IMG/VR virus record: IMGVR_UViG_3300027509_000003
Length of the DNA stretch: 55,666 bases
From: a virus
Strand: one strand, 5' to 3'
Position 1 is the stretch's first letter. Every line of letters begins with the position of its first letter. Shown in pieces: positions 1 to 28,562 of the stretch. Both the position numbers and the translations under genes were made by a program. The notes under the pieces are model-generated. The model saw only the letters and a program-made list of their open reading frames with translations. It ran no database searches and was not told the DNA's origin.

Positions 1-127
1 CGCCGTTTCCGGGGTCGGGGGCAGTGTCGGTGCCGGTTCGGTGGTTGCGTCGATCTCCGGCGATCCTGCGGCGTTCACGGGTTCAGTCGTTGGTTCTGTG
101 GTGGTCATGGTCATCACGCGCCCTTCA
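1..127. repeat. Terminal direct repeat copy 1 (assembly overlap of a circular or permuted genome)
   Basis: Identical to 55540..55666 by direct reading. It lies inside coding sequence (the 5-prime end of recT and the last codons of the Gam-like gene), so it is unlikely to be a physical genome end. Confidence 0.9.
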
Positions 128-12270: not shown

Positions 12271-12276
12271 GGGCTC

Positions 12277-13001
12277 TCATTGTTCCACGTCGCCGCGCAG
12301 GAACCGATGCCGGATCCGGCGGCGTTGCTCCAGGATGGACATGGACGCCAACGGGTTCACCAGTAGCGACACGGCAAAGTCCAAAGCGACCCACCGGCCG
12401 GTCCCCCACCGTTCGATCATCACGTCGTCATACCCCGCGGCGCGGGAATGAGCAACAAACGCGATGGTGTTTTCCGCCGCCACGGCGGCTACTGCAAAAA
12501 AGAATCAGGGTCCGTGAGGATCCGGTTCAGCATCCCGTTGATAGCGGACCGGGCGTCAGACGCTGTGACCCCGTCGCGTTCTTCTTTGGACTTCTGCAGC
12601 CACGCCAGCTGGTCCCGCCGGTACTTCGCGGACGTTTGAGGCCCGAAGATCTGATCGATCATTGCTGATACCTGAGCGAGACCGTCACCTGCCTGGGTGG
12701 CCTGAGCGGCCAGAATCAGGATGTCGCGAGTTTCGCTGTCGGCGAGGTCGAGACGGACTTCGTACCGTCCCCACGGGAAATTCAGGATTACCGGGTCCTG
12801 CTCGGTGGCGCCGGTTTCGTTCACCGGCGGCGGGACAGGGTCGCGCTGCTCCTGTCCTGGGACAGGCTCTGGTGGCCGCACTGACGGAGACACCGCCCGC
12901 ATTGACGCCGGCAGCGGCGGATGCTCCGGTTCCGTGTTGGTGATGAACTCTTCGAAGTCGATCTCTTTGGGGGCGTTCGGGTCAGTTGTCATGGCGGCCA
13001 C
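12277..13001 (-). CDS. Tail assembly chaperone, GT-type fusion made by a programmed -1 frameshift
   Basis: Minus-strand T TTT TTG (12501-12495) sits in X XXY YYZ register two codons before the TAG. The -1 frame is open from there (..AVAAVAAENTIAF..) to 12277, which is 6 nt before the tape-measure ATG. Confidence 0.65.
12489..13001 (-). CDS. Tail assembly chaperone (G-type)
   Basis: 170 aa (GTG 13001, or ATG 12992). It ends ..DSFLQ-stop on the slippery run and lies directly upstream of the tape measure. Confidence 0.7.
   Translation of the reverse strand: MAAMTTDPNAPKEIDFEEFITNTEPEHPPLPASMRAVSPSVRPPEPVPGQEQRDPVPPPVNETGATEQDPVILNFPWGRYEVRLDLADSETRDILILAAQATQAGDGLAQVSAMIDQIFGPQTSAKYRRDQLAWLQKSKEERDGVTASDARSAINGMLNRILTDPDSFLQ
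12495..12501 (-). other. Slippery heptamer for -1 ribosomal frameshifting
   Basis: The minus strand reads GAT TCT TTT TTG CAG TAG. The heptamer T TTT TTG is in the zero-frame register. Confidence 0.65.
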
Positions 13002-13675: not shown

Positions 13676-13993
13676 TCAGAATCCCATTTCGTCCATGGAT
13701 TGGTTCACGGCCTTATCCCACGTTTCCTGAGCGGTGACCTTGTTCCACCACCCGAGGTGAGGTTCCCTGTTGTCCCAGTACGTGCCGTAATCAAACTCGA
13801 GGACTCCGGCGCGGGTCGTTGATTCCAGCACGGCGAACAGGTTGGCCGGGCCGTCCACCAGGTCCACGCCCAGAGACAGCGCCCCGGTGTCGAATGGCAT
13901 GTCCGGATCTTCACGGGCCATCTCAATGAAGATCTCGACGGCGCGAACCATGACCGCTTCAAGGTCCTCGAGCAGTTCGTCAGCCAGGTTCAC
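13676..13993 (-). CDS. HK97 gp10-like neck/tail-completion protein, putative
   Basis: 105 aa with a GTGA overlap. AREDPDMPFDTGALSLGV and FDYGTYWDN resemble gp10-family motifs. Located between the adaptor-like gene and the tube candidate. Confidence 0.4.
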   Translation of the reverse strand: MNLADELLEDLEAVMVRAVEIFIEMAREDPDMPFDTGALSLGVDLVDGPANLFAVLESTTRAGVLEFDYGTYWDNREPHLGWWNKVTAQETWDKAVNQSMDEMGF

Positions 13994-14949
13994 TTCCCGG
14001 TCACCGGGTCAACGGTCACCACACCCCCACCACCGGCACCGGCTGTAAGCGGTTCTGCGGGCGGCACGGGCGGGTCGGGTGGAACGATGGGGCCGATGTC
14101 GTCGCACACCGGAGGAGGTGACCACGGCCCCCCAGCGGGAGTGTTCGGGGGGAACAACGGATCCGTGGCCGGGTTCCAGTTCGATTCGATGAACACCCGC
14201 CCGGTGTAGCGGGCCTCGTCCGGGTCAAGGATCCGGCTCGTGGACCCGCTCCGGTGGTACCGCATCACATGAGCCCCGACGCGGTCAATGTCGCGCTGAT
14301 CGATCGTGTACGTCCGGACGCCGTCGTTGTAGCTGGTCACCTTCCCCTTGACTTTGCAAAAGCTGGACCCGTAGTGCTTGAGCACCTGGGACCACCACAT
14401 CATGTCCCGCCACCGCAACACCACCGGCGGCGGCGCAGCCCCGTACCGCACAATCACAGACCACGTGCACGGCGACCCGTTGACCGCGTTCGGGTCCTGC
14501 AGCGGGTACATCCCCTGATGATTCACCAGCAGGTGATAGTCCTCGATCGACCAGCCGGACGTACCCACAGACACGCCGTTCACCCGGACGTCGATCAGTT
14601 CCAGGATCGGATACCCGACACCGCCGGACATCGGATCCCGCAGTTCCAAACCGTTGCGTTCGCACCCGCAGGAACACGGGCATCCGCACGGCTTACATGG
14701 CCGGAGTTGAGCGATGCAGCAACACCCCGGGTACCGGCGCGCCGTCTCATCGAACGCCATGTCGTTGGCCAGGTCAAGTTCGCATTGAAGCTGCTCAGCG
14801 GTGAACAGGTGAGCGCACGGATACAGGCCTTTACCGAAGTGCGGGTTTGGCCATGACCGGCACCCGGGCCCGCACGGCATCATCGGCGCGGTCAGAAGCG
14901 TTGACGCTCCGCCGGCAGGATCATCATCGGGTCCGGTTTCTTCATCCAT
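13990..14949 (-). CDS. Head-tail adaptor-like protein with a metallothionein-like Cys cluster
   Basis: 319 aa from ATG 14949. The ORF is open to 15018, but that stretch forms a strong hairpin. AEQLQCELDLANDMAFDETARRYPG resembles gp6-type connector N-termini. Contains GCCCIAQLRPCKPCGCPCSCGC and a Pro-rich C-terminus. Confidence 0.4.
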   Translation of the reverse strand: MDEETGPDDDPAGGASTLLTAPMMPCGPGCRSWPNPHFGKGLYPCAHLFTAEQLQCELDLANDMAFDETARRYPGCCCIAQLRPCKPCGCPCSCGCERNGLELRDPMSGGVGYPILELIDVRVNGVSVGTSGWSIEDYHLLVNHQGMYPLQDPNAVNGSPCTWSVIVRYGAAPPPVVLRWRDMMWWSQVLKHYGSSFCKVKGKVTSYNDGVRTYTIDQRDIDRVGAHVMRYHRSGSTSRILDPDEARYTGRVFIESNWNPATDPLFPPNTPAGGPWSPPPVCDDIGPIVPPDPPVPPAEPLTAGAGGGGVVTVDPVTGK

Positions 14950-15036: not shown

Positions 15037-15789
15037 CTATGCTGCGGCCCGTAGCAGCGGGCTCACCTCTGCGTCTTTGCTGCACGACGGGCACGAACAC
15101 GCCAGCACACCCAACGCTTCGAGCTCTGCGGCCTGCTCATAGGTCACATACATTTCAGACCATGGGGTCGTCACGCCGGCGCCTCGAGGGTCGATCCCCC
15201 ACGGGTCAGCGAAGTTCGCGTTCGTTTCTGATGTCGCGGTGAAGGTCCGGGGCTTGAACCCCTGACCGCGTTCGATGACCAGGCCGTTGGTCTTGAACCG
15301 CAAGCACCGCTGAATCAGTGCCACATAGGCAATGTCGGGGTGACGCTTTTTTCCGCACCATGCGTTGTGGAGCGTGATCAACCCCATCTTGTGCGGGCAC
15401 GTCGCGTTCTCAACCGAGCACGAAGGGCACTTTGACACGTCCTGTTCGGTGGGCTCCCAACCCAAACAGGCGCCGGTCTCCGGGTCGATGATCTCCTGGG
15501 CCCAGCCCTGCAGCGCCCAGAACTTTGGCATCTCGGTGGCGCACGTGGTGATCTCGTTTTCCCACCCGGTCCGAACCGGGTCGGTCTCAACCTCATGGCA
15601 CGGCTCACCGGTTTGGCCGCTCTCATCGGTGATGGTGGTGCCTTCCCGAAACAGTTCGGTCAGCTTCAGGTTGCTGATGCTGCAGTAGGCAAACGCCGGG
15701 TTGGTTGGGTCCACGATCCCGGTGCAATCTGTCGGGACCACGATGGTCCGGCAGATGTCATAGGCCGCATAGGAAATGTCTTCAGCCAT
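15037..15789 (-). CDS. Cys-rich virion-module protein (250 aa), abundant structural protein candidate
   Basis: ATG 15789 (MAEDISYAAY, 8-nt overlap upstream). 14 Cys by count, including CPSC twice. Last gene before the adaptor-like gene and followed by a strong hairpin. Confidence 0.5.
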   Translation of the reverse strand: MAEDISYAAYDICRTIVVPTDCTGIVDPTNPAFAYCSISNLKLTELFREGTTITDESGQTGEPCHEVETDPVRTGWENEITTCATEMPKFWALQGWAQEIIDPETGACLGWEPTEQDVSKCPSCSVENATCPHKMGLITLHNAWCGKKRHPDIAYVALIQRCLRFKTNGLVIERGQGFKPRTFTATSETNANFADPWGIDPRGAGVTTPWSEMYVTYEQAAELEALGVLACSCPSCSKDAEVSPLLRAAA

Positions 15790-16159
15790 GATCGGCCTCC
15801 TCAGTTGATTCGGTTTCTTCGGTGTTGCCGTCCATGGTCTCACTCTCATGGTCCGGTATCGATAGGACGATCATGGTGGCCAGTTCCCGGGTGGTGGTTT
15901 GCAAAGACCAGGTGAGCCCGTGGACGGCGGCCATCTCGACCAATCTGTCTCGTGTCAATGATTGGGTCAGCACGTCGACTGACGCGGTCTGGTCATCGGA
16001 CATGACGACCCGAACGGATGGTCGACCGGCCGGCCCCGGCGTGATGCCGGCGGCTTTGGCTTCGGTTTCGTTCTGGGCGCGCTGATCCCGGTACTCGGTG
16101 GGTGTCATCTCGGCGCGTTCCCACCAAGGGATCACTACTCCGGCAGGCAGGCGGGTCAT
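15782..16159 (-). CDS. Acidic protein with an HeH/SAP-like motif
   Basis: 125 aa with an ATGA overlap. Contains TRDRLVEMAAVHGLTWSLQTTTRELATMI and the acidic tail ETMDGNTEETESTEEADHG. Confidence 0.5.
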   Translation of the reverse strand: MTRLPAGVVIPWWERAEMTPTEYRDQRAQNETEAKAAGITPGPAGRPSVRVVMSDDQTASVDVLTQSLTRDRLVEMAAVHGLTWSLQTTTRELATMIVLSIPDHESETMDGNTEETESTEEADHG

Positions 16160-16728
16160 GGCTGCGGGAACGTCGACACGTCAGGCGTGTGGTTCACTCG
16201 GCGGGCGGGGACACAAAGCACACCATCCACCGAAACGTCGGCGGTCTCGATCCACTCCAGCTGATAGTTCCCTTCACACCGGCCGGCCGTGTTGATCTTG
16301 GTCCACTTGTCGTCGCCGATGTTGCGGCCCCACACGTCCCACGTCACGCAGTAGTAGGACCCCTGCGGCTGCAGAACGAAGACGCCTTCGTTGTTGTCTG
16401 GTCCCCCGGCCAGCGGCCTGGGGCTCACGTTGTGGCCAAGCGGGCACGTAGCGTACGTCAGAACCGGGCAGTCACGGTAGGTACCCAAAACCGACGGGTA
16501 CACGCCTTCGTACTGGCTCAGCAGCCCGTCAGCGCCCAGGAGCAGCTTCCCGCCCTGAGCGACGCTGTTCGTCGACAACGAATCCGGGCCGACTCCCGAC
16601 TCCATGCTCTCGGCTGGTGAACCGTCAGCGTTCTTGACGTTGATCGCAACGTCGACAACTTCGTACTCGTCCTTGTCGGGGCACATGATCCGGGTCGGTA
16701 CTGCGATGCAACGCGATGCAATGAACAC
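16156..16728 (-). CDS. Cys-containing virion-module protein
   Basis: 190 aa. GTG 16728 with GAAGGAG 5 nt upstream. 7 Cys by count. Confidence 0.55.
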   Translation of the reverse strand: MFIASRCIAVPTRIMCPDKDEYEVVDVAINVKNADGSPAESMESGVGPDSLSTNSVAQGGKLLLGADGLLSQYEGVYPSVLGTYRDCPVLTYATCPLGHNVSPRPLAGGPDNNEGVFVLQPQGSYYCVTWDVWGRNIGDDKWTKINTAGRCEGNYQLEWIETADVSVDGVLCVPARRVNHTPDVSTFPQP

Positions 16729-16730
16729 GT

Positions 16731-17024
16731 CTACTCCTTCTCTTCGGTCAGCGGGTCAGCGTCGAAAGCCGCGGCCGCTTCCTCTTTGGTTGCGAACAGG
16801 CCAGCCTCGACCAGGCCACCGATTGCTTCGTCTCGCGCTTCGGTCTCGGTCATCGGGCTGTGCTGCCCGTCGGCCATCAACGCTTCCTCAGCTTCGGCGA
16901 TCAACTCATCCGGCGGCACCGACGGATCATCGACGACAGATACTGGTCCTCTGCCTCGCCGTTCAGCGTTGCGGGCCCGCGACGCTTCCACCTCGTCGTT
17001 GGTTAGTCGTCGTCTTGATTTCAT
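16731..17024 (-). CDS. Hypothetical charged protein
   Basis: 97 aa with an ATGA overlap. Basic N-terminus (KSRRRL..RARNAERRGRG) and an acidic remainder. Confidence 0.55.
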   Translation of the reverse strand: MKSRRRLTNDEVEASRARNAERRGRGPVSVVDDPSVPPDELIAEAEEALMADGQHSPMTETEARDEAIGGLVEAGLFATKEEAAAAFDADPLTEEKE

Positions 17025-17380
17025 GTGGTCTGCTCCACCCCGAAGTTGTGACCGGCTTCTATCAGTGCTTCGATCAGCCCGGATTCGTTGAGCTTCGATC
17101 GGTCGACGATCCGGTATTTCGTCGCGAGTTTCCGCAGCGTCGCCACAGTGACAGCCGCTGCTATCGCGGCCCGGTCCTGACTGAATACGGACAGGTCAAC
17201 AATCGCTGCAGAGTCCGGGGCAGCGTTGAAAGTTTTGGCGATGTCAGCGGCCACGCCATCGCTCTCGACGTCTGCGACGGCGAGCGCAACCAAATCATCT
17301 GAGTCGATGGGGGCGAACCCGTCGAGCGGCAAGTCAGAAATCTCGATTGCGTGCTCGGTGATTCGCACGTACTGGGTCAT
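17021..17380 (-). CDS. Acidic protein with a C-terminal HeH/SAP (Rho_N-like) motif
   Basis: 119 aa from ATG 17380 (ATGA overlap). C-terminus reads TVATLRKLATKYRIVDRSKLNESGLIEALIEAG. Confidence 0.55.
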   Translation of the reverse strand: MTQYVRITEHAIEISDLPLDGFAPIDSDDLVALAVADVESDGVAADIAKTFNAAPDSAAIVDLSVFSQDRAAIAAAVTVATLRKLATKYRIVDRSKLNESGLIEALIEAGHNFGVEQTT

Positions 17381-18024
17381 GACTGGCCTCCAGTGACGAT
17401 TGTGCGGGGGACCGTGACGAGCGCAGCTTGGGACCGTAGCCCTACATACGCTCGGGACCATGGCGTGTCCTGGGGGGCGCCTTCGCGGAGGCGGTGCCGG
17501 ACCTGCACCCCGATGCTCGCCGAAGCGGGAATGTTGAGCAGATGCTGCGTGTCAACGCCGCCGTGCTCCCATTCGTACTGCAGAGGTTCGGTAGAGAGCG
17601 CCTCAGTGCGCTCGTCGCTGTACGGGTACGCCCGGTTCGTGTGCGTGGCCACGACAGTGCCGTTGACCAGATAGCGGGCGTCGATCAGGTGATAGATCCG
17701 AGTGTCACGGGCGTAGTGAAGCAGCGTCCCGAGGTCCGTGGTGGCCAGGCCGTCGGTGATGCAAGCGGCCGTGGTGAACGTTGCGATGGTGCGCCAGTCC
17801 ACGATCGTGGTCCACGCTGCAGGGATTCGGGTCCCGGTGGTGATTCCCAGCCAGCCGGTCGGGTTCGACGAGTGAGTCCACGGGCCGGTGCAGGTCAGCA
17901 TCGGCTGATGCCATGATTCGCCGGGGGCCAGAACGTACGGGTCGCATCCTTCGACGATCTCCTTGCACTGGACTTTGCCGTCGTCTGTGACGCACCACAC
18001 GAGACGGGTCCGCGCTGCGGTCAT
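17377..18024 (-). CDS. Virion-module protein of unknown function
   Basis: 215 aa, ATGA overlaps at both ends, 5 Cys by count. Confidence 0.55.
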   Translation of the reverse strand: MTAARTRLVWCVTDDGKVQCKEIVEGCDPYVLAPGESWHQPMLTCTGPWTHSSNPTGWLGITTGTRIPAAWTTIVDWRTIATFTTAACITDGLATTDLGTLLHYARDTRIYHLIDARYLVNGTVVATHTNRAYPYSDERTEALSTEPLQYEWEHGGVDTQHLLNIPASASIGVQVRHRLREGAPQDTPWSRAYVGLRSQAALVTVPRTIVTGGQS

Positions 18025-19787
18025 CGGTCTACCCTCAGCGCAACGTTCGCCGTTGTCGCACTCTCAACGTTTGCCGTTGTCGCCCGCTTCACTGGTGTGC
18101 CTTCGCCCGATGCGGTCGTTGGTTCGCAGGTGGTGTTGTCGACGATCTGCTGCAGGAGAGCGTTGGTGGCGTCTTGCTTGTCGCACAGATCAGCCAGACC
18201 GGGATCGGGGGCGGCGCCTTTCGCGACCTGGGTTGGCTGCGGGTCGAGCGGCGCGGTGCAGTCAGCGGGGATCGGATCTCCTGACGACCGGAACTGGAAC
18301 CGTCGGCACGAGCGACGGCCACCGGCGAACTCGGCGTCTGCGCCTTCGACGCCGTTGTTCCACGCTTCGGAGTATGCGGCTTCGCACCCGGCGACGTCAT
18401 TCTGCTGGGTTGACGTGACGGTGGTGACGTTCCCTGCTGTGTTCACGGTGACGGTCCGAGTGTCGATGACGAACCGAAGCCCGCCAATCGTGTACGTGCA
18501 AAGCTGGAAATTCGACCCGATCTGGTTGTTGATCTGGTTCAGCAGCGCGGTGCCACTTTGCCCCATCGTGAACGATGCGGTGTGGCCGTCATCGGTGACG
18601 GTGATTGTGTCGGTCGCCCGGCCGAGCCAAGCGATCGCCGCTACCGACTGCAGGCAGCGGCCCTGCGGCGTCGGTGCCGTGTTCAGCTTCCCGGGCAGGA
18701 ACGTGGGGCACTTGGATCCGCCGGGGTACACCGTTTGGCCGTTCTGGTCGATGCCCTGGACCCAGCAGACCGATTCGCCGTACCGGTCGTCTGACTGGTC
18801 GCAGATCCACCCGTCAGCGGTGTGCCATGTCGGTGTCACTACCGCCGGTGGTTCTTCGACGGCCGCTCCGGTGGCGCAGTCGCCGTAGTAGTTACCCTCG
18901 CCTAGTTCGTGGGGTACGACATCGTCGTTGTCGTCGAGCGTGTACGGCACGACCGTGCGGACACCATCGCAGTCTTCGATCGAGATGAACACGCCCCGAG
19001 TGATAACCGTGAATGCGGGGTTGCCGTCGCCGTCGAGCACCGGGTTGCCGTCGGCGTCGAGCGTCGGGCTGATCTCGCATACCGGGCCGATGTTCGTCGT
19101 GGGGCAATCTGGCACAGCGGCGAACTGTGGGTGCGCTGGCACTTCGCAGTTGCGGTACAGGCAGCCCTCGGGTCGACCCTCGATGGCGACGGTGGTTCCG
19201 TCTTCTTGTACGGCCTGCCACGTCTCGGTGATCGTCCCGTCAGGCTGCTTGGTGATGCACTGCCAGAACCGTTCGGGGGTGCCCGGCTGGATCGACAGTG
19301 GCAGGTAGATCACGCGACCGTCTCGGCGTCCGCCGATCGTCGTCGACTTGACCCGGATTGGGATGATGTCGCCCGGGCAGCAGTCCGCCCAGCCGAAGGC
19401 CCCCCATGGGGTGAGCGGGTTGCCGTCGGGCCCGGCGTTGCCGTACTCGTTGCCGTTCGCTTGGGTTTTGACTGTGGTGCTGCCCTTGGCTGCGGACAGG
19501 CACTTCGACAGCCAGCTATTGATGTGCGCCCACCGGTTCGAGTAAGCACTCGATGCGTCATAGCCGGGGACGGCATGGACCTGGACCAGACCGTTCGACA
19601 TCGTCATTTCGAGCCGTATGTCGTCAGTCGGGATCGGGAGCGCACCGGGACCGATAGGGCGCGGTTCGCCGACGGTGTGATTGTCGAGAGTCAACACGTC
19701 GGACTGTCGGCACCACTCAACCCAATCAACGTTGGGCTGCGCCAAGATCGCGCACTTGAGGTCTTTGATCAGTTGAGCGAGATTCAT
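18021..19787 (-). CDS. Large Cys-rich virion-module protein with DxDGNP repeats
   Basis: 588 aa, 22 Cys by count. LDADGNPVLDGDGNPAF is a calcium-binding-like motif. The C-terminus has the duplication TTANVESATTANV. AAGGA lies 6 nt upstream of the ATG. Confidence 0.6.
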   Translation of the reverse strand: MNLAQLIKDLKCAILAQPNVDWVEWCRQSDVLTLDNHTVGEPRPIGPGALPIPTDDIRLEMTMSNGLVQVHAVPGYDASSAYSNRWAHINSWLSKCLSAAKGSTTVKTQANGNEYGNAGPDGNPLTPWGAFGWADCCPGDIIPIRVKSTTIGGRRDGRVIYLPLSIQPGTPERFWQCITKQPDGTITETWQAVQEDGTTVAIEGRPEGCLYRNCEVPAHPQFAAVPDCPTTNIGPVCEISPTLDADGNPVLDGDGNPAFTVITRGVFISIEDCDGVRTVVPYTLDDNDDVVPHELGEGNYYGDCATGAAVEEPPAVVTPTWHTADGWICDQSDDRYGESVCWVQGIDQNGQTVYPGGSKCPTFLPGKLNTAPTPQGRCLQSVAAIAWLGRATDTITVTDDGHTASFTMGQSGTALLNQINNQIGSNFQLCTYTIGGLRFVIDTRTVTVNTAGNVTTVTSTQQNDVAGCEAAYSEAWNNGVEGADAEFAGGRRSCRRFQFRSSGDPIPADCTAPLDPQPTQVAKGAAPDPGLADLCDKQDATNALLQQIVDNTTCEPTTASGEGTPVKRATTANVESATTANVALRVDR

Positions 19788-19833
19788 GCTGATCCTTGCA
19801 GCTTGGGGACCCCGGACACCTTGCCCATTGAGA

Positions 19834-20202
19834 TCATTCGTCCGATTCGTTGGCCGCGTTGATGGCCGCGACCAACTGAGAGCGGTTGCCGGTGGCCTTC
19901 ACGTCCAGGCGCTTCGCTTCGGTGACCAGTTCGTCCTTCGGCATGTCCTCGGTAAACACACGACGGATCGAAGGGCCGAGTACAGGCGGGCCGAAGTCAA
20001 CCGGGGCGCGATCTTCTGGCAACGGGACGTCCAGCGCTGCCAGTTCGTCGGCGTCGGTGATGACCTTCGCCCAAGTGCTGTATGCAGCAACCTCGGCGTC
20101 GAACTCGTCCGGTTCGACATCCATGAAGTTCGTTACGATCTCGTCGGCGGGTCGGCCCATGGCCTCGTATCCCCTTGGGAATTGGATAGCGATGGTGCTC
20201 AT
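19834..20202 (-). CDS. Acidic protein with a C-terminal HeH/SAP motif
   Basis: 122 aa from ATG 20202 (ATGA overlap). Contains MPKDELVTEAKRLDVKATGNRSQLVAAINAA. Confidence 0.55.
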   Translation of the reverse strand: MSTIAIQFPRGYEAMGRPADEIVTNFMDVEPDEFDAEVAAYSTWAKVITDADELAALDVPLPEDRAPVDFGPPVLGPSIRRVFTEDMPKDELVTEAKRLDVKATGNRSQLVAAINAANESDE

Positions 20203-21047
20203 TGGGCACACTTCCTTTCACGGATAAATAGGATGACCATCGACGCCGCGTAGAACTCGACAGAAGAACCAGCGGTGAGGCTGTTGACTGTTATTTCCTG
20301 ATCGACGGTGAACACGAAAGTGGAGCCGCCCGGCTGCGTCGAGGTGATCAGCATGTATGTCGGCGTCGATTCGGTGTCGCCCGATTCGAGATCGGGTGCG
20401 ACCACCGTGTCGCCGTTGCCGTTCATCGGGGAGGCGGGAACACCGCCGCCAATCGAGTACACGGACCGGAAAGCGATGCGGCCGTTATCGGCACTTGATT
20501 TGGCACCGAAACCTCGTGCCCCGGGGTTCACGAAAGCGACGAAGCGGCCTCCGCACTTCGGGACCGTGAACGACCGTGTGAGCGTTTGCCCGATCAGTCC
20601 TTCGTCGCCGGGTCCGATCTCGATTACAGCAGTATTTGAGTTGGGGCCACCGTCGAAAGATGCGTTGTGGCACTCGTCGGTGACGACGCCTTTGACGCTC
20701 GTGAAGGTTCGCTTGATCGCCTTGTTGTCGGTCGTGCATTCGACAGTTGCGATTGCGTCGTCAGGCAGGCAGCCAGCCGACAGGACTGTCCCGTCTGGGT
20801 TGAGGATCGTGATGACCCGAGCGTCAGCGGGTGCGCCTTCTGCGCCAGTGCCGGTGTAGTCGAGACCTGCGATGGGGCCGACCGTGATCTGGACATCGTC
20901 CGAGATCGGGTTGCCATCAGCGTCCAACAGGTTGCATGCCTGAGCGAACGCGACGAACTGCGCCTTCGTGATCGGGTCACCAGCGGTGCCCGTCTGCGGG
21001 TAGACGTTCGTGGTCTTCGTTTGCGGTGGTTGTGGGCAGGCCGTCAT
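20199..21047 (-). CDS. Cys-containing virion-module protein
   Basis: 282 aa, 7 Cys by count. Its LLDADGNPISDD motif is shared with 18021..19787. Confidence 0.55.
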   Translation of the reverse strand: MTACPQPPQTKTTNVYPQTGTAGDPITKAQFVAFAQACNLLDADGNPISDDVQITVGPIAGLDYTGTGAEGAPADARVITILNPDGTVLSAGCLPDDAIATVECTTDNKAIKRTFTSVKGVVTDECHNASFDGGPNSNTAVIEIGPGDEGLIGQTLTRSFTVPKCGGRFVAFVNPGARGFGAKSSADNGRIAFRSVYSIGGGVPASPMNGNGDTVVAPDLESGDTESTPTYMLITSTQPGGSTFVFTVDQEITVNSLTAGSSVEFYAASMVILFIRERKCAQ

Positions 21048-21048
21048 G

Positions 21049-21909
21049 TCAGCATTCCTCTTCTTCGATGGGGACTTCGGTCCCGATTACTCCGGTGACC
21101 GATCCGGCCCCGTCAATGGTCACTGCTTCGCCGTTACCACAGAAGGTGGCCTCGCATCCCGGCTGCACATACTCGGTGTACTCGTTGCCGTCCACGCCGA
21201 CCGTGGTCACGGCCACGGCCTGGTCCTCGACTTCGCAGTCAGGATCAACCGACGCTTTCACCGTGACACTGCACACGTTCTCCAGGATCAGTGGCGCGGT
21301 GCCGTCCATGACACCGTCGACAAGCGGTTTGGTGTTCCCGTCGAGTGGCACACCGACGATCTGGGTGGTCGCCGGTGGGCCGCCGATGTTGACGCCGCAC
21401 GGTGCCAACACGTAATCGACTCCTTCGGTCAGACCTTCGATCGGACTGTCGATCGGCGTGAGTCCGCCGTTCTGAGTCCAGCTCCGCGGTTTGATCGTGC
21501 CGTCGCCGGCCATGACCACTTCGAACTCGCCGAGCTTGCAGGTGAAATACCCTTCGTTGTCGCCGCTGCCTGGGGTGAGGACTTGGACGCAGCGCCGGAT
21601 CAGGTCGCAAACACCGAGCTGCGCGCCTTCGGGGATCGTGTCGGACTTGGTGAACCCGTCGTCTGACAGGTACCCGACCGGGATCATTGCGCCGTCTGGG
21701 CCCTTAATGAAGCAGACCGAGATCTGATCGCAACCGTTCAAACAGTAGTCCCGCAGCACGGGCGTGCTCTGCACGGTGACGTTGATGTCTCCCAGTTCGG
21801 CGATCGCTTCCGCGATGGCCTCACCGAGTCCTTCGATGTCGAAGTCAACTTCGATCGTGGTTGGTGGGCAGTAGAGGTCATCGGCCGCTGTCGGTTTGTT
21901 GACGCTCAT
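21049..21909 (-). CDS. Cys-rich virion-module protein
   Basis: 286 aa from ATG 21909 (ATGA overlap). 13 Cys by count. Ends IEEEEC. Confidence 0.55.
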   Translation of the reverse strand: MSVNKPTAADDLYCPPTTIEVDFDIEGLGEAIAEAIAELGDINVTVQSTPVLRDYCLNGCDQISVCFIKGPDGAMIPVGYLSDDGFTKSDTIPEGAQLGVCDLIRRCVQVLTPGSGDNEGYFTCKLGEFEVVMAGDGTIKPRSWTQNGGLTPIDSPIEGLTEGVDYVLAPCGVNIGGPPATTQIVGVPLDGNTKPLVDGVMDGTAPLILENVCSVTVKASVDPDCEVEDQAVAVTTVGVDGNEYTEYVQPGCEATFCGNGEAVTIDGAGSVTGVIGTEVPIEEEEC

Positions 21910-23060
21910 TGCTTGTCCCCCTCTACCGCAGGAAGGGGGCACCCGCCCAGGATCGTCGGCGCAGCCGCAGCGAAACACGGGTTCCACACGCCAAGCGTGT
22001 GGATCTCCCACACCGCATCAACCATGTTGTCCAAAAGTTCAATGCTCGCCGCTGGGCTCACCAGGTTCGCGCGGTTCACCATTACGGGGTCAGACACGGC
22101 CGCAAGGATCGGGCCGGTAGCCCACGTGTACCCGTTGGCCACACCCGCCGCCGGCGGCGGGATCGCCTGCGGGGTCGCCTCAGGAGGGCACCCAGCAGTC
22201 AAACATTCAGCGGCCGGTACCACCGGATCTCCGTTGAAATCGACGCCAACACCGCCGTCCAGGTTCAGCCAATGCCCGGCAGCGTCAGACGGTCCGCCTT
22301 CGAGCTCGACCAGCCCGTTGCACTTCCGAAGCTTGTATACGCCGTGGCCAGGGACATGAGACACGCCGCGGCCGGCTTTGTTTTTGATGCGCCATGCGTC
22401 CATCCCGGCCAGCGCGTCGTCGATCTCGAGGTACCCGGAAGCCAGGTTCATCGCGTAGTCACGAATCGCAGGGCTTCGGGTGTAGTGCCCGGTGAACAGT
22501 TCCCGGGTCATCATGTCCGAAGCGCACCGCAACAACCGTTCGCGTGCTTCAACAGCCAACCCCTCCGGGGTGTTGCACGCCAGGTCGCCGGACGCCGGCA
22601 CGTACCACGTGCCGGGCCGGAACTCCACGGTTACGGTCTTGATCGGGGCGGCGATCTTCGCTATCGGCCACGCCGGACCTTCAGCAGGTTGGACGCTGGG
22701 GTGCCATTGCACCAACCCCAGGTTGTTCCTGGTTCGGGCGGGGACTTTCACGCCGCCATCGTCGATGCACTCGACAACGGTTGGCCAACCGTTGATCGAC
22801 TCGCAACATACGACGGTCAACCGGACGCCGTTGCGCCAGTTCCGGTTCGGGACCGCGTCGCCAGGGGTCGGCGCCCAAACGTACGGGTTGGCGCGCAAGG
22901 CGTTCGCGTTGGCCACCGCGGCGGCTTCGCGCTCCACGGCGTCTTCGATCTCGTTGACGCTGCGCAGCTGCGGGATCTGGTCCAGCCGGAACGTGGCGTC
23001 AGTGATCAGCGAAAACAGGCGGGAAAGTTTCCCGTCGCCGACCAGCTGCAGAGCGTGCAT
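21906..23060 (-). CDS. Capsid-associated protein, second major-capsid candidate
   Basis: 384 aa, the first gene after the 702-aa head protein. The C-terminal LLDNMVDAVWEIHTLGVWNPCFAAA loosely resembles the C-terminal pattern of HK97-family capsid proteins. 10 Cys by count. Confidence 0.35.
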   Translation of the reverse strand: MHALQLVGDGKLSRLFSLITDATFRLDQIPQLRSVNEIEDAVEREAAAVANANALRANPYVWAPTPGDAVPNRNWRNGVRLTVVCCESINGWPTVVECIDDGGVKVPARTRNNLGLVQWHPSVQPAEGPAWPIAKIAAPIKTVTVEFRPGTWYVPASGDLACNTPEGLAVEARERLLRCASDMMTRELFTGHYTRSPAIRDYAMNLASGYLEIDDALAGMDAWRIKNKAGRGVSHVPGHGVYKLRKCNGLVELEGGPSDAAGHWLNLDGGVGVDFNGDPVVPAAECLTAGCPPEATPQAIPPPAAGVANGYTWATGPILAAVSDPVMVNRANLVSPAASIELLDNMVDAVWEIHTLGVWNPCFAAAAPTILGGCPLPAVEGDKQ

Positions 23061-23161: not shown

Positions 23162-25270
23162 TCAGGTCGGGCAGGTCGCCAATGGGGCCATACAACCAAT
23201 ACGGGCGCCGGTCCACATCAGGTTCTTCAGGTTGATGGTGAACGCCTTGTGGCAGCCGTCTTTCCCGAGACCCTCATGGGTTTCCTGGAACATCCCGAAG
23301 ACCCAGTTGCTCTTCGCGTAGGCCGGGGTGACCTGAGCGCCGAACCCGATCGATGGGCGGCGCAGAGCAAAGAAGTCTGAGCGGTCATAGATCCGGATGC
23401 GGTAGTCGCACCCGAACTTCCACGCGGCGTATTCCGTCGCGTTCGCCGCGCCGAGGCCGCTGTTCTCTTCGGTGGGGAATGAAGGAGTCGGGAACGGCGA
23501 CGTTTCATCGCTGGCCAGGTCCAGCATTGACTTGATGGTGAACGTTGCGTCACCCTCGAACGCTGATGTGAGCAGCGAAGCGAGTTCTTCGCGGCCTTCG
23601 TGGCACGCACGTCGGTTGTCCCAGCCGAGGATCTTGGCCATGCCGGCGGGGATAGCGACGGTGTAGTCGCCGGCGGTGGTCCGGTCGTTGAACTGACCGG
23701 AACACGTGAGCGTCTGCACGATCTCTTCGAGGACCGGGATAGCTCCGAGCTGTTCGCCGGCAGCGTTCGCGAACCCGCACGCCGGGTCGGCTACATCGAT
23801 GTTGACCCAGTGGGAGAATGAATCGATCTGAGCGAGGCGGTACTTGTTCCGCTCACGGATGAACGCGGTTTGCAATGACCGGCGGGCGGCGCTGATCAAC
23901 TGCTCGTTGCACGCCTCCAATTCTTCCGGCCATTCCATGCACGCAGCGATCGAAAGCATCCGAACCTTGGACTTCGGTACGCATCCGGGCACGTAGCACT
24001 GCTTCTGCAGCGCGAGCATCGCGGCGTGAAGTTCCGCCTTCGGTTCGCCGTCAGCAATCGACCCATACCAGGCGTCTCGAGCTTCGCAAAACTTTTTGCG
24101 GCGCTCGTCATCCCATACGGTCATGCCCTGGGTGACCAGCGGCAGTTCCCGGTAGTACTCGAGCTCGCACGTTGGAGCGGAGTACTCCTCGAATTCGTCG
24201 GCCAGCGGATCAAACATGGTCCGGCAATCCGGGATTTCGGTTCGCTGCGTTGGGACCACAGGGCAGTCACCGGTCGCTGACGCCTGGACACGGGCCCGGG
24301 CCCGGTCAGCGTTGGTGATGCCGTTGGCGTGGACGATCTGGCGGGACTGCGCCAGGTCGATGGTGTTGGCCGGGTTCACGCCGGGAGCGTCGATCCGGTA
24401 CGAACCGAACTTCACGCCGGCCGGCATCAGCCCGCTGGACTGGTTCCCGGCGTTGTTCGACAGGTAGCTCGAGAACTGTTCAGCGATGTGGGCGTCGGTG
24501 ATGTCCTGCCCGACGGTGATGTGTTCTTCCGCGCCGTTCGTGAACGCTGACGCGGCGACCATGCGGGCAGCGCGGCGTGGTTGCGCTGGGACCGGGGCCG
24601 GGGCCGGCCCGCCGCCACCGTTGGCGGGTGGGGCGCCGCTGATGAGAGATGCGGGGTCACGGTTGAACGTGGTGCCACCGGACCAGTTGACCGGGGCGCG
24701 TACCCCGTTGGCGAGCACTGCCACAGGCGTGACTACGCCGTCTTCGCCAACGACCAGGTCGATATCGACGCTGGTCACCGGCGGATCAGCTGGCGCGTTC
24801 GGGTCCGCGGGCGGGTCGGCTGGCGGAGCGTTCGGGTCCGCGGGCGGCGCCGGCGGAGAGTTGGCAGCGTTCGGGTCCGCGGGCGGGTCGGCTGGCGGAG
24901 CGTTCGGGTCCGCGGGCGGCGCCGGCGGCGGGTCGGCTGGCGGATCGGGCAAGGCGTTCATCCGGGCGATGCGCTTGTCGGCTGCCTCGCTCATCACCAG
25001 GTAGGGGATCAGCGCCTGTTCTGATGCGTCCATATCCGCATCCAAGCCCGTCGTCTGGGCCGTGGACAACAGCGTCTGAAACGCGGTGCGGGCTTCGGTC
25101 ACCCGCGCCTGGAGCGCTGGTAGCTCAATGGTCGATGTTTCTGCTACCAGGGCGTCCATCTCGTGGACGGTGGCGCCTTCGGGTGCGGGGCCTTCAAACG
25201 GGACCAGGCTGGCCGGGCCGTCGGCAGTGTTGATGGTGTAGAGCACACCATCAATCAGGACATAGATCAT
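23162..25270 (-). CDS. Large head protein: scaffold-like coiled coil, Pro-rich linker and a C-terminal domain of several hundred aa (major capsid candidate)
   Basis: 702 aa. The helical N-terminus (EMDALVAETSTIELPALQARVTEARTAFQTLL) resembles a delta or scaffolding domain. The (PPADPNA)n linker spans aa 108-165. It sits downstream of the protease and scaffold-like genes and is followed by a strong hairpin. Confidence 0.45.
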   Translation of the reverse strand: MIYVLIDGVLYTINTADGPASLVPFEGPAPEGATVHEMDALVAETSTIELPALQARVTEARTAFQTLLSTAQTTGLDADMDASEQALIPYLVMSEAADKRIARMNALPDPPADPPPAPPADPNAPPADPPADPNAANSPPAPPADPNAPPADPPADPNAPADPPVTSVDIDLVVGEDGVVTPVAVLANGVRAPVNWSGGTTFNRDPASLISGAPPANGGGGPAPAPVPAQPRRAARMVAASAFTNGAEEHITVGQDITDAHIAEQFSSYLSNNAGNQSSGLMPAGVKFGSYRIDAPGVNPANTIDLAQSRQIVHANGITNADRARARVQASATGDCPVVPTQRTEIPDCRTMFDPLADEFEEYSAPTCELEYYRELPLVTQGMTVWDDERRKKFCEARDAWYGSIADGEPKAELHAAMLALQKQCYVPGCVPKSKVRMLSIAACMEWPEELEACNEQLISAARRSLQTAFIRERNKYRLAQIDSFSHWVNIDVADPACGFANAAGEQLGAIPVLEEIVQTLTCSGQFNDRTTAGDYTVAIPAGMAKILGWDNRRACHEGREELASLLTSAFEGDATFTIKSMLDLASDETSPFPTPSFPTEENSGLGAANATEYAAWKFGCDYRIRIYDRSDFFALRRPSIGFGAQVTPAYAKSNWVFGMFQETHEGLGKDGCHKAFTINLKNLMWTGARIGCMAPLATCPT
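24776..24949 (-). repeat. In-frame tandem repeats encoding PPADPNAPPADPPADPNA
   Basis: The plus strand shows near-identical gcgttcgggtccgcgggcgg(g/c).. units repeated four times. They encode aa 108-165 of the 702-aa protein. Confidence 0.8.
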
Positions 25271-25440
25271 GGGAGGATGCCTTTCAAATGTGGGATCGGT
25301 GGAACACGACCAACAGAAAAGACCGCCGTTTTGGGTTGGTTACCCGGACCGGGGAACCTGAAACGGGTTGTTCTGATGGTTACAGCGCACCGAACCGGCA
25401 TCGCCAACGGCACCGAAGGTAGCACCCAGCCGCGCCGGTA

Positions 25441-25470
25441 CCCCTATACCGGGGGTTATAATCTGGGCAT
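25441..25470 (+). promoter_or_regulatory. TATAC-G5-TTATAAT promoter core for the plus-strand HTH gene, possibly bidirectional
   Basis: CCCCTATACCGGGGGTTATAAT. The TATAAT at 25457-25462 lies 8 nt before ATG 25471. The opposite strand reads TATAGG, facing the 702-aa gene. Confidence 0.5.
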
Positions 25471-27740: not shown

Positions 27741-28562
27741 TCAGGCCTGCATCGCCGCCCGGGCAGCGAGCACAGCGTCAGCCAGCAGGTTCTTGTTGGC
27801 GTGGTCCTCGGTGTCTACGGCCAGGCCCTGTTCGGTGATGTACTGCTCGAGTTCGGTGCGGGAACCGCGTTTCATCACCGATTCGGTCGGGGTCTTGCCG
27901 TCATAGGCCGCCCCGGATCCCGGCGCCGGCTCCGGTTCGGCCGTGCCGCCGCCGATGGGCAGGCCGACATCATCGCCCTGGTCATCACCATCAGGCCCGT
28001 CAGCCTGGCCATCAGCATCATCGTCGATTGGTGTGGGGTCCGGATCGTCCTCGTCGATGGCGACGCCGTTGGCCGCGGCCAACACGTTCATGTCGACCGG
28101 TTCATTCCGGGCGATAGCGATCATCTCGGATTTGGGGACCGATCCGGCGGCCATGAACCGGTTCAAAGCGTCGGAACGTTCGTCGCCGTACGCGCGGATG
28201 ATCGTGATCAGCGCCTCTTCTGAGAGGGCGTCATAGTCCGGGTGGCCATCAGTTGGCACAGACTGCGCCTCAGCGGATTGACCGAGGCGGGGAGCGCCGG
28301 CCGGGACAGCGTTGGCCTGCAGCGTCTGTTGATTCGCTGGGGTTTCCGGGCGGTCCCCCGGTTTGGGGTGAGCGTCGCCGGTCAACAGTTTCGCCTTGGC
28401 CGACGCCACGGCCAGGACCCGCCATGCGCGGCCGGCGTTCGGGTTGACCGGCACAAACGTGGAACAGATCTCGACTCCGTTCACGTGGAACGTCACCTCA
28501 GCCTCGCTTTCGTTGTTGGGGTCGGATACGACGGCTGTTTCGACTGCAGCTATTGAAGACAT
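27741..28562 (-). CDS. Scaffold-like acidic protein with two HeH/SAP motifs
   Basis: 273 aa from ATG 28562 (AAAGGAAAC upstream). Contains SEEALITIIRAYGDERSDALNRF and SRTELEQYITEQGLAVDTEDHANKNLLADAV, plus a long acidic tract DDDADGQADGPDGDDQGDD. Confidence 0.5.
   Translation of the reverse strand: MSSIAAVETAVVSDPNNESEAEVTFHVNGVEICSTFVPVNPNAGRAWRVLAVASAKAKLLTGDAHPKPGDRPETPANQQTLQANAVPAGAPRLGQSAEAQSVPTDGHPDYDALSEEALITIIRAYGDERSDALNRFMAAGSVPKSEMIAIARNEPVDMNVLAAANGVAIDEDDPDPTPIDDDADGQADGPDGDDQGDDVGLPIGGGTAEPEPAPGSGAAYDGKTPTESVMKRGSRTELEQYITEQGLAVDTEDHANKNLLADAVLAARAAMQA

What the first reader, a model, noticed from the sequence alone, without database searches (positions are those of the whole stretch)
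15037..23060. Oversized head module: eleven unknown genes between capsid and adaptor, arranged as HeH/SAP-motif protein plus Cys-rich protein sets
Siphophages usually have only a few small genes between the major capsid gene and the head-tail connectors. Here about 8 kb (21906..23060 down to 15037..15789) intervenes. Three small acidic proteins carry a helix-extended-helix/SAP-like motif. They are 19834..20202 (DELVTEAKRLDVKATGNRSQLVAAI), 17021..17380 (TLRKLATKYRIVDRSKLNESGLIEALI) and 15782..16159 (TRDRLVEMAAVHGLTWSLQTTTRELATMI). The same motif occurs twice in the scaffold-like protein 27741..28562. Each small protein is followed closely by a Cys-rich protein of 588, 190 (after a 97-aa gene) or 250 aa. 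Two of the large proteins share DADGNP calcium-binding-like motifs. One reading is a series of decoration or fibre proteins, each with a dedicated scaffold or chaperone. I cannot name a known analogue.
Basis: partly seen in the sequence, partly recalled or inferred. Interest (0 to 1): 0.65.

Follow-up and report, generated by a model that had tools for sequence, protein, structure and literature searches.

The report
Cysteine-rich orphan head-to-neck gene block
A marine tailed phage with almost no sequenced relatives carries about 8 kb of unknown genes ahead of its head-tail adaptor; they split into cysteine-rich proteins, probably outer virion parts, and cysteine-free small proteins, probably assembly helpers, but no function could be confirmed.

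Summary
The eleven ORFs are real. They match independent gene calls, have coding GC3 of 0.66-0.80, and g384 and g286 are under purifying selection. They lie upstream of a head-tail adaptor (phrog_783, E 1e-10) in a complete ~55.5 kb marine siphophage genome.

None matches Pfam, PHROGs, NCBIfam, PDB sequences or 50,697 phage genomes. An exhaustive HMMER search with g384 found one fragment. Two partial relatives were recovered.

The Cys pattern is real but wider than reported. Every presumed outer virion protein from g702 to the distal tail is Cys-rich (3.66% overall). The G/GT tail chaperones, tape measure, portal, g594, the scaffold-like protein and the four small proteins are almost Cys-free (0.23%).

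The HeH/SAP claim is weak: only g122 gets a sub-threshold SAP hit. DADGNP is far above chance. The capsid protein was not identified; g702 and g384 are the main candidates.

Best reading (about 0.4): accessory disulfide-linked surface proteins interleaved with non-virion assembly factors. This resembles the disulfide-networked phages Milano and Jabs. g286 travels with g384. g282 has a conserved N-terminus and a swapped C-terminal part, as fibres do.

The parts
The N-terminal 335 aa have no Cys and hold a helical stretch plus PAPPADP-type proline repeats. The C-terminal ~370 aa hold 15 Cys. Candidate capsid-shell protein with a removable N-terminal assembly domain.
   Evidence: P of no Cys in the first 335 residues is 6e-5. 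No family, PDB or phage match. AF2 pLDDT 38. The repeat is 24 aa shorter in L001.
21906..23060 (-). g384, 10 Cys. Capsid-shell candidate: major capsid protein, a second (penton-type) capsid protein, or cement.
   Evidence: Only two relatives found: L005 (94% aa over residues 100-384) and L004 (46% over the C-terminus). dN/dS 0.21. Always followed by a g286 homologue. No capsid-family match by any tool. AF2 pLDDT 35.
21049..21909 (-). g286, 13 Cys, pI 4.05. Conserved partner of g384; candidate cement or decoration protein.
   Evidence: Homologues in L005 (94%) and L004 (34%, E 7e-21). Nine Cys are invariant across all three copies. dN/dS 0.17. Overlaps the g384 stop by 4 nt.
20199..21047 (-). 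g282, 7 Cys. Modular protein: a conserved N-terminal ~50 aa that includes LLDADGNPI, then a replaceable C-terminal part. Candidate fibre or ligand-binding decoration.
   Evidence: The L005 homologue is similar only over the first ~94 residues (49.5% by tblastn; closest over the first ~50) and then diverges. L004 has a same-sized Cys-rich gene here with no detectable similarity.
19834..20202 (-). g122, no Cys, pI 4.2. C-terminal SAP-like helix-loop-helix, below threshold. Candidate assembly factor.
   Evidence: Pfam SAP and SAP_new25 at E 0.002-0.03, below cut-off. Overlaps the g282 stop by 4 nt and lies 46 nt from g588. In L005 an unrelated Cys-free 111-aa gene takes this position.
18021..19787 (-). 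g588, 22 Cys, tandem DADGNP..DGDGNP. Largest accessory protein.
   Evidence: No match anywhere.
17377..18024 (-). g215, 5 Cys, all in the first 88 residues. Accessory Cys-rich protein.
   Evidence: No match.
17021..17380 (-). g119, no Cys, pI 4.35. The proposed HeH segment is not supported by profiles.
16731..17024 (-). g97, no Cys, pI 4.4. Small charged protein.
16156..16728 (-). g190, 7 Cys, with an NADGSP variant of the shared motif.
15782..16159 (-). g125, no Cys, pI 4.5. The proposed HeH segment is not supported. Marginal similarity to the tail chaperone g167.
   Evidence: phmmer E 0.0018 in a 25-protein set and BLASTP E 0.016; this is a lead only.
15037..15789 (-). g250, 14 Cys, including CPSC and CSCPSC clusters. 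Last gene before the adaptor.
13990..14883 (-). g297, the head-tail adaptor and lower boundary of the block. 16 Cys with a CxC cluster.
   Evidence: phrog_783 at E 1e-10. Cys positions.
12277..12992 (-). g167/g68, the G/GT tail assembly chaperone pair with slippery T_TTT_TTG at 12495-12501. No Cys. Reference for the Cys-free class.
   Evidence: Lies directly upstream of the tape measure (PF10145, 2.7e-25).

Best explanation
The block is the middle of one long late operon (g702 through the tail genes) of a complete marine siphophage genome from a lineage that has hardly been sampled.

Its genes belong to two composition classes that run through the whole virion module. The first class is Cys-rich at 2-7%. 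It holds g702 (C-terminal part), g384, g286, g282, g588, g215, g190, g250, the adaptor, g217 and four proteins encoded after the tape measure. The second class is essentially Cys-free. It holds g122, g119, g97, g125, the G/GT tail chaperones, the tape measure, g105, the N-terminal 335 aa of g702, and (with 1 to 4 Cys each) the scaffold-like protein, g594 and the portal.

I infer that the Cys-rich proteins are outward-facing virion parts. They would become disulfide-cross-linked once the particle leaves the reducing cytoplasm, as shown by cryo-EM for phages Milano and Jabs. The Cys-free proteins would be transient assembly factors or internal parts.

On that reading the block holds several kinds of protein:
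- g384 is a capsid-shell protein.
- g286 is its conserved partner, possibly cement or decoration.
- g282 is a fibre-like protein with a conserved anchor and an exchangeable distal part.
- g588, g215, g190 and g250 are four further surface proteins, forming head decoration, head fibres or a neck collar.
- Four small non-virion helpers are interleaved with them.

Shown: the genes are real, the two Cys classes exist, the adaptor, chaperones and tape measure are identified, g384 and g286 are linked and under purifying selection, g282 is modular, and the D-x-D-G-N-P motif is shared. Inferred: the disulfides, virion location, helper role, and which helper serves which protein.
For: Gene reality: with dN/dS 0.17-0.21.

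Cys classes: 174/4755 (3.66%) against 8/3528 (0.23%). P of no Cys in the four small proteins at their neighbours' rate is 3e-8. P of no Cys in the 998-aa tape measure at the module-wide rate is 7e-9. All 15 Cys of g702 lie after residue 335 (P 6e-5).

Anchors for the classes: adaptor phrog_783, tape measure PF10145, and the G/GT frameshift site.

Precedent: Milano structural proteins hold 2.4% Cys, and most of their cysteines are in disulfides. Its minor capsid protein gp10 and collar gp13 carry gene numbers between the capsid gene gp9 and neck gp14 (PMC10491603). [quoted passage not shown]

The g384-g286 pair is kept in both relatives. The g282 N-terminus is conserved while its C-terminal part and the downstream small gene are replaced in L005. 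All six accessory Cys-rich proteins have their first Cys at residues 4-14 (post hoc P 0.003), reminiscent of Milano's N-terminal disulfide anchors. Motif: 3 observed against 0.0004 expected.
Against: No protein of the block has any detectable homologue of known function, and both structure predictions failed (pLDDT 35 and 38). Virion location is therefore inferred from composition and position only.

The Cys rule has a likely exception. g105 lies between the adaptor and g217, has no Cys, and may be a neck part. So a Cys-free protein is not necessarily absent from the virion.

Several Cys clusters (CxC and CxxC in g297, g217 and g250) look more like metal sites than disulfide partners. Cys counts are odd in several proteins.

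The first-Cys statistic and the class boundaries were chosen after seeing the data. Only one instance (L005) supports module swapping, and that contig is partly chimeric.
Confidence: 0.4

Rival explanations
1. Three HeH/SAP-motif proteins act as dedicated scaffolds or chaperones, each for the Cys-rich decoration or fibre protein encoded just downstream (g122 for g588, g119 for g190, g125 for g250). The same motif in the scaffold-like g273 marks a common mode of binding.
For: The order of genes is as stated. g122 has a weak SAP-type match. The small proteins are Cys-free, like known transient proteins. g125 overlaps g250 by 8 nt.
Against: g119, g125 and both g273 segments fail SAP/HeH profiles at E<=10. 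The joint profile finds no HeH chain in the PDB, and the three proteins show no significant similarity to each other. g122 is coupled to the upstream g282 by a 4-nt overlap and lies 46 nt from g588. In L005 the small gene changes together with the upstream gene's C-terminal part. g97 has no proposed motif yet sits in the same class.
Confidence: 0.15
2. Part of the block, most likely its adaptor-proximal end (g215 to g250), is neck rather than head. It would encode the connector parts missing from this genome (stopper, tail terminator), or a collar or whisker structure around the neck, as in Milano gp13 or T4 wac.
For: Only one small gene (g105) lies between the adaptor and g217, the only sizeable gene left before the chaperones. 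A usual four-part connector is therefore not accounted for. HK97 has Ad1, Hc1, a Neck1/tail-completion protein and a terminator in that interval. In Milano the Cys-rich collar gene number falls between those of the capsid and neck genes.
Against: Connector genes normally follow the adaptor rather than precede it. None of the proteins matches any connector family in PHROGs, even at E<=10. Jabs and T5-type phages manage with a three-part connector that lacks a stopper.
Confidence: 0.2
3. The cysteines mainly bind metal (zinc or iron-sulfur clusters) or serve another redox role, so there is no disulfide network. The two classes would then reflect fold type, not location.
For: CxC and CxxC clusters are present: CKPCGCPCSCGC in g297; CQC, CQQC and CFARC in g217; CPSC and CSCPSC in g250; CLNGC in g286.
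Against: Most Cys in g588, g282, g215, g190, g384 and g702 are isolated and tens of residues apart. The class split follows virion topology, outer against internal or transient, across unrelated proteins. That matches the two phages in which disulfides were actually seen.
Confidence: 0.12
4. The block is non-structural cargo (morons, anti-defence or host-takeover genes) inserted into the late operon.
For: No structural family matches. Genes with no homologues are common in accessory regions. A small HTH gene on the other strand shows that this module tolerates insertions.
Against: The block has the same strand, tight coupling and GC3 as its neighbours. It shares the Cys-rich composition of the adaptor and tail proteins, unlike the early genes. 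g286 is kept next to g384 in a relative at only 34-46% identity. No PHROGs category matched; PADLOC was not searched.
Confidence: 0.06

Closest known systems
Agrobacterium myophage Milano: disulfide network with minor capsid protein gp10, linking proteins and collar gp13 (PMC10491603)
   Same: Structural proteins are enriched in Cys: Milano 2.4%, here 3.66% in the outer class. Extra Cys-rich virion proteins carry gene numbers between those of the capsid gene and the neck/adaptor gene. Short N-terminal Cys-bearing strands anchor accessory proteins; here all six accessory proteins have their first Cys at residues 4-14.
   Different: There is no sequence similarity (tblastn of g702, g384 and g297 against 50,697 phage genomes found nothing). 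Milano is a contractile-tailed phage of a soil and plant bacterium. It has four genes in the interval, not ten or eleven, and no reported interleaved Cys-free small genes. Disulfides are demonstrated there and only inferred here.
Mycobacterium abscessus siphophage Jabs: ~1,700 disulfides, two capsid proteins, three-part connector (bioRxiv 10.64898/2026.07.24.740622)
   Same: Jabs is a siphophage of a high-GC host, with Cys cross-links from capsid to tail tip. It has a long capsid protein (594 aa) whose N-terminal 266 residues are absent from the mature shell, and the next ORF number is a shorter second capsid protein (257 aa). Here the 702-aa g702 has a Cys-free N-terminal 335 aa and is followed by the 384-aa g384. 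Jabs has an adaptor of about 250 aa and no stopper.
   Different: Homology could not be tested directly because the Jabs genome is not in the phage collection. No PDB sequence matched. The HK97 fold of g702 and g384 is unproven. Jabs has no decoration or cement proteins, whereas this phage has six extra Cys-rich genes.
Tail-fibre plus assembly-chaperone cassettes (T4 gp37/gp38, lambda stf/tfa, Mu S/U); from general knowledge
   Same: A protein with a conserved N-terminal anchor and an exchangeable C-terminal part is followed by a small gene that changes with it. This is seen for g282/g122 against the L005 pair.
   Different: The genes sit in the head-to-neck region, not after the baseplate. 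There is no similarity to Tfa or gp38 families. Only one comparison is available.
SAP / HeH / Rho_N helix-extended loop-helix motifs (Pfam PF02037, PF18953)
   Same: The g122 C-terminus aligns to SAP models over about 30 residues.
   Different: The score is below the curated cut-off. The other proposed copies do not match. SAP/HeH domains are known as nucleic-acid binders, not as chaperones of capsid proteins.

Membership tests
SAP/HeH motif (Pfam PF02037 SAP, PF18953 SAP_new25) | Match to the family profile at or above the curated gathering score | tested here: not met
   g122 scores 14.3-17.8 bits against a cut-off of 23.9 (SAP), and 14.8-18.1 against 26.3 (SAP_new25), at E 0.002-0.03. g119, g125 and the two g273 segments give no hit at E<=10.
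SAP/HeH motif | The copies are recognisably related to each other and to solved HeH domains | tested here: not met
   All-against-all phmmer and BLASTP find no significant pair among g122, g119, g125 and g273. A four-segment profile against the PDB returns ResT and arsenate reductase at E>0.3, with no SAP, LEM or Rho chain.
HK97-fold major capsid protein | Sequence or profile similarity to a capsid family (Pfam, PHROGs, NCBIfam, PDB) | tested here: not met
   g384 and g702 have no hit in Pfam (E<=0.1), PHROGs or NCBIfam (E<=10), or PDB phmmer and profile searches (E<=10). hhalign against HK97 gp5 gives probability <=0.2%, no better than other proteins.
HK97-fold major capsid protein | HK97 fold (N-arm, E-loop, spine helix, P and A domains) | tested here: inconclusive
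   AF2 without an alignment gave pLDDT 35 (g384) and 38 (g702 residues 251-702). Foldseek on the g384 model found nothing with E<=0.001. No alignment could be supplied because no homologues were allowed or found.
Head-tail adaptor (phrog_783) | Profile match, and position between the head genes and the tail tube, chaperone and tape measure genes | tested here: met
   g297 residues 71-198 match phrog_783 at E 1.1e-10. It is followed by g105, g217, the G/GT pair and the tape measure. It is a different family from HK97 Ad1 (phrog_40).
Tail assembly chaperones G/GT | Two ORFs directly upstream of the tape measure, joined by a -1 slippery heptamer | tested here: met
   T_TTT_TTG at 12495-12501 lies just before the g167 stop, and the -1 frame reads into g68. 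The tape measure matches PF10145 at 2.7e-25. There is no family hit for g167 or g68 themselves.
Disulfide-networked virion (Milano and Jabs type) | Cys content of structural proteins well above the usual phage level and above the phage's other proteins | tested here: met
   3.66% in 14 presumed outer virion proteins against 0.23% in 13 internal or transient proteins. TerL, g594, portal and methylase are at or below 0.7% and the ParB-like protein is at 1.1%. Milano: 2.4% structural, 1.4% proteome, T4 0.9%.
Disulfide-networked virion (Milano and Jabs type) | Inter-subunit disulfide bonds present in the particle | not testable with these tools
   This needs particles, for example non-reducing gels, stability with and without DTT, or cryo-EM.
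Fibre with exchangeable distal domain plus co-varying chaperone | Conserved N-terminal part, replaced C-terminal part, and a downstream small gene replaced with it | tested here: inconclusive
   g282 against the L005 288-aa protein: tblastn gives 49.5% identity over the first ~94 residues (closest in the first ~50), and the rest does not align. The downstream genes are unrelated (g122 against a 111-aa Lys-rich ORF). This is one comparison, on a contig that is chimeric upstream. A trimeric fibre fold was not tested.
DxDxDG-type calcium-binding loop | Motif present in the expected loop context, with bound calcium | not testable with these tools
   D[AG]DGNP occurs 3 times (g282, g588), with NADGSP in g190 and DEDGNP in L005. 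No calcium-binding family matched in Pfam.

The most novel reading that the evidence does not exclude
This is a marine siphophage that combines a whole-virion disulfide network and two shell proteins (g702 with a removable N-terminal domain, plus g384), as in Jabs. On top of that it has a previously unseen superstructure on the head or neck. That structure would be built from six unrelated Cys-rich proteins, anchored by N-terminal cysteines and a shared D-x-D-G-N-P motif. Each, or each pair, would be folded or held in the reducing cytoplasm by its own small Cys-free helper. That would make a set of dedicated chaperone-client cassettes for capsid accessories, with at least one client (g282) exchanging its distal domain like a receptor-binding protein.
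Probability: 0.15. Interest if true: 0.75.

Novelty: new variant of a known kind. Interest (0 to 1): 0.5.

Why it matters
If the composition rule holds, Cys content alone could separate outer virion parts from transient or internal proteins in phages whose genes match nothing. That would be useful for the large unannotated fraction of marine viromes.

It would also extend whole-virion disulfide cross-linking to an uncultured marine lineage. So far this has been shown only for one soil myophage and one mycobacteriophage. It would point to a much larger set of accessory surface proteins than either of those has.

A head- or neck-borne protein with an exchangeable distal domain would suggest host or particle binding by parts other than the tail tip. 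None of this is established here. As it stands, the finding is a well-delimited, internally consistent block of orphan genes.

Tried and rejected
Searches that found nothing:
- megablast of the block against 50,697 phage genomes.
- tblastn of g702, g384 and g297 against the same collection.
- Pfam, PHROGs and NCBIfam for all block proteins, repeated at E<=10.
- PDB sequence searches for g702, g384, g588, g297, g250 and g282, and for profiles A1, A2 and A3.
- Word-indexed homologue search for g384 and g297, which returned only the query itself.
- Scans of IMG/VR with g702, P0003, A1, A2, the portal and g370, and of GTDB genomes with A1 and A2.

Steps that failed or led nowhere:
- A concatenated query of ten proteins returned nothing, not even the query proteins, and wasted one search.
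- The exhaustive HMMER search with g384 found only one 127-aa fragment.
- Tape-measure relatives in IMG/VR (20-28% identity) carry no homologue of any block protein.
- The best terminase hit, Arthrobacter phage Jinkies (38% over half the protein), is a myophage with an unrelated head module.
- AF2 without an alignment failed for g384 and for g702 residues 251-702.

Ideas rejected:
- Paralogy among the block's proteins, and between g702 and g384: no significant pair by BLASTP, phmmer or shuffled Smith-Waterman (g702 C-terminal part against g384, z = 0.8).
- My own by-eye match of g384 to HK97 gp5 motifs (spine helix, C-terminal NM...E...P): hhalign gives 0.1% probability, so I dropped it as evidence.
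- My by-eye reading of g105 as HK97 gp10-like: no family hit.
- Promoter and terminator scans are at background level.
- Strain variation cannot be used. L001-L003 are 99.9-100% identical to the window.

Full report
WHAT THE WINDOW IS. The two ends of the window share an exact 127-bp repeat. It is therefore a circularly assembled, complete phage genome of about 55.5 kb. The same sequence, at 99.9-100% identity, occurs in an ENA assembly, a Logan assembly and a JGI metagenome. The one indexed run is labelled marine metagenome.

Nearly all genes are on the minus strand. The recognisable landmarks are:
- large terminase, 34901-36394 (Terminase_3 and Terminase_6N);
- a ParB-like protein;
- portal, 30372-32054 (phrog_776);
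- head-tail adaptor g297, 13990-14883 (phrog_783, E 1e-10);
- tape measure, 9274-12270 (PF10145, 2.7e-25);
- directly upstream of the tape measure, a G/GT chaperone pair joined by a T_TTT_TTG -1 slippery site at 12495-12501.

The phage is therefore a siphophage. The best terminase match to a cultured phage is 38% over half the protein, to Arthrobacter phages. The one examined (Jinkies) has an unrelated structural module.

THE OBSERVATION. All have coding GC3 of 0.66-0.80. They are packed with 4-8 nt overlaps or gaps of 1-2 nt. The exceptions are 46 nt before g588 and 153 nt (or 18 nt with an upstream GTG start) before the adaptor.

The quoted peptides, the absence of Cys in the small proteins and the Cys-richness of the 588-, 190- and 250-aa proteins are all correct. 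D[AG]DGNP occurs three times against 0.0004 expected in shuffles. In HK97 the adaptor gene follows the capsid gene directly, so 7-8 kb here is indeed long.

HOMOLOGY. None of the eleven proteins, nor g702, matches Pfam, PHROGs or NCBIfam, even at E<=10. Those tried against PDB sequences or the 50,697 phage genomes matched nothing either. The word-indexed search of 5.8 billion proteins found only the queries themselves for g384 and g297.

The exhaustive HMMER search of 1.84 billion representatives with g384 found a single 127-aa fragment. Its 2.2-kb contig (L004) holds three things. The first is the C-terminus of a g384 homologue (46% identity). The second is a 298-aa homologue of g286 (34%, E 7e-21). 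The third is a 278-aa Cys-rich gene in the place of g282, with no detectable similarity.

A scan of JGI metagenomes with the g286 alignment found one more contig, L005. It is chimeric, with Bacteroidota-like genes up to about position 9100. Beyond the junction it carries g384 residues 100-384 (94% aa), g286 (94% aa), and a 288-aa protein that tblastn matches to g282 only over the first ~94 residues (49.5% identity, closest over the first ~50), including DLLDEDGNPI, and that then diverges. An unrelated Cys-free 111-aa gene follows. For g384 and g286 against L005, dN/dS is 0.21 and 0.17, and the cysteines are kept. No other relative was found in IMG/VR or in 185,579 species genomes.

THE HeH/SAP CLAIM. 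Only g122 matches SAP models, and it does so below their curated cut-offs. The segments of g119, g125 and g273 match nothing at E<=10. A joint profile finds no HeH-type chain in the PDB. The proteins are not significantly similar to each other. A loose pattern gives 3 matches against 1.7 in shuffles.

THE CYS PATTERN IS WIDER AND SHARPER THAN REPORTED. Across the virion module the proteins fall into two classes.

The Cys-rich class has 174 Cys in 4755 residues (3.66%). It holds g702, g384, g286, g282, g588, g215, g190, g250, the adaptor, g217 and four proteins encoded after the tape measure.

The Cys-poor class has 8 Cys in 3528 residues (0.23%). It holds the four small proteins, g105, the G/GT chaperones, the tape measure, g91, g209, the scaffold-like g273, g594 and the portal.

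At their neighbours' rate, the chance that the four small proteins hold no Cys is 3e-8. At the module-wide rate (1.86%), the chance for the tape measure is 7e-9. Within g702, all 15 Cys lie after residue 335 (P 6e-5).

Members of known role in the Cys-free class are either absent from the finished particle (chaperones) or inside it (tape measure). The member of known role in the Cys-rich class, the adaptor, is on the outside. By position, so are the proteins encoded after the tape measure.

PRECEDENT. Two cryo-EM studies describe this kind of particle. In Agrobacterium phage Milano, structural proteins hold 2.4% Cys, against 0.9% in T4, and most of those cysteines are in disulfides. The disulfides link capsid, neck, collar and tail, and reduction destabilises the particle. 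The minor capsid protein gp10 and the collar gp13 carry gene numbers between those of the capsid gene gp9 and the neck gene gp14. Accessory proteins are anchored through N-terminal cysteines (PMC10491603).

In the M. abscessus siphophage Jabs, about 1,700 disulfides span the whole virion. The shell is built from a 594-aa protein that lacks its first 266 residues in the mature capsid, plus a 257-aa second capsid protein with the next ORF number. The connector has a 247-aa adaptor and no stopper. The authors propose that the bonds form at or after lysis (doi 10.64898/2026.07.24.740622).

The parallels here are the composition, the g702/g384 pair, the adaptor size and the sparse connector. There is no detectable sequence similarity. 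The Jabs genome is not in the collection I could search.

WHICH GENE IS THE CAPSID PROTEIN? This could not be settled. No head-module protein matches any capsid family. AF2 without alignments gave pLDDT 35 (g384) and 38 (g702 residues 251-702). g702 and g384 are not detectably related to each other (z = 0.8).

I had read HK97-like motifs into g384 by eye. hhalign against HK97 gp5 gives 0.1% probability, no better than unrelated proteins, so I withdraw that reading. By size, position and the Cys-free N-terminal domain, g702 is a good candidate for a capsid protein with a removable assembly domain. g384 could be the capsid protein proper, a second shell protein, or cement.

PAIRING. The alternation can be read in either direction. 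The coupling favours 'small gene belongs to the gene before it'. g282 and g122, g215 and g119, and g190 and g125 each overlap by 4 nt, whereas g122 and g588 are 46 nt apart. In L005 the small gene changes together with the C-terminal part of the upstream g282 homologue. This is how fibre and chaperone cassettes behave in known phages (general knowledge). g125 overlaps g250 by 8 nt, so the evidence is not one-sided. A marginal similarity between g125 and the chaperone g167 is only a lead (E 0.0018 in a 25-protein set; BLASTP 0.016).

VERDICT. The block is real and unusual in length, and it lies far from anything annotated. The best-supported reading (about 0.4) is a set of accessory, disulfide-linked outer virion proteins interleaved with small non-virion helpers. 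Within it, g286 would be a conserved partner of g384 and g282 a modular, fibre-like protein.

It does not agree with the HeH motif as the organising feature, with the stated direction of pairing, or with the block being necessarily all 'head'.

The rivals are as follows:
- Part of the block builds the neck or a collar (0.2).
- The cysteines bind metal rather than forming disulfides (0.12).
- The block is non-structural cargo (0.06).

I rate it a new variant of a known kind, the disulfide-networked virion with accessory proteins. Interest is 0.5. The composition rule and the sheer isolation of the lineage are notable, but function remains inferred.

Noticed in passing
window 1-127 and 55540-55666: An exact 127-bp direct repeat sits at the two ends of the window. 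The assembly is therefore circular and the window is a complete genome of about 55.5 kb.
   Followed up: yes
window 25271-25683: A 70-aa helix-turn-helix gene on the plus strand (25471-25683) sits inside the minus-strand structural module, divergent from g702. The 200-bp region between them holds a CCCCGGTATAGGGG palindrome. This may be a regulator and operator for the late operon.
   Followed up: partly
window about 24780-24950 (g702 residues ~107-165): The PAPPADP-type proline repeats in g702 are 24 aa (72 bp) shorter in the otherwise identical ENA contig L001. This is either a length polymorphism or repeat collapse in assembly.
   Followed up: partly
window 12495-12501, minus strand: A canonical -1 slippery heptamer T_TTT_TTG lies just before the stop of g167. 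The -1 frame continues into g68, giving a G/GT tail-chaperone pair with no family hit.
   Followed up: yes
window 14665-14727 (g297 residues 54-74) and 13021-13674 (g217): The adaptor carries a dense CxC run, CCCIAQLRPCKPCGCPCSCGC. g217, the only sizeable gene between the adaptor and the chaperones, has 16 Cys in 217 aa, with CQC, CQQC and CFARC. These look like metal-binding or multi-disulfide knots.
   Followed up: no
L005 1-9146 against 9147-12282: The ENA contig ORXT01002014 is chimeric. SusD-like, FG-GAP-like and oxidoreductase-like genes at about 50-57% GC are joined to phage sequence in the middle of the g384 homologue (residue 100). The hybrid ORF begins with what looks like a signal peptide.
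   Followed up: partly
window 32143-33786: A 547-aa protein with ParB_N and HTH_ParB domains is encoded between the large terminase and the portal.
   Followed up: no
window 15037-21909 (g286, g282, g588, g215, g190, g250): All six accessory Cys-rich proteins have their first cysteine at residues 4-14. With random placement P is 0.003, though the test was chosen after seeing the data. This is reminiscent of the N-terminal disulfide anchors of Milano's linking proteins.
   Followed up: partly
window 26596-27708 (g370): Residues ~54-230 weakly match a domain that PHROGs files under virion structural protein, head maturation protease and portal fusions (E 4e-9 to 3e-3). It contains CHNSSPHGDNCDCDDCATGC. 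This may be the prohead protease or another head-internal enzyme domain.
   Followed up: no
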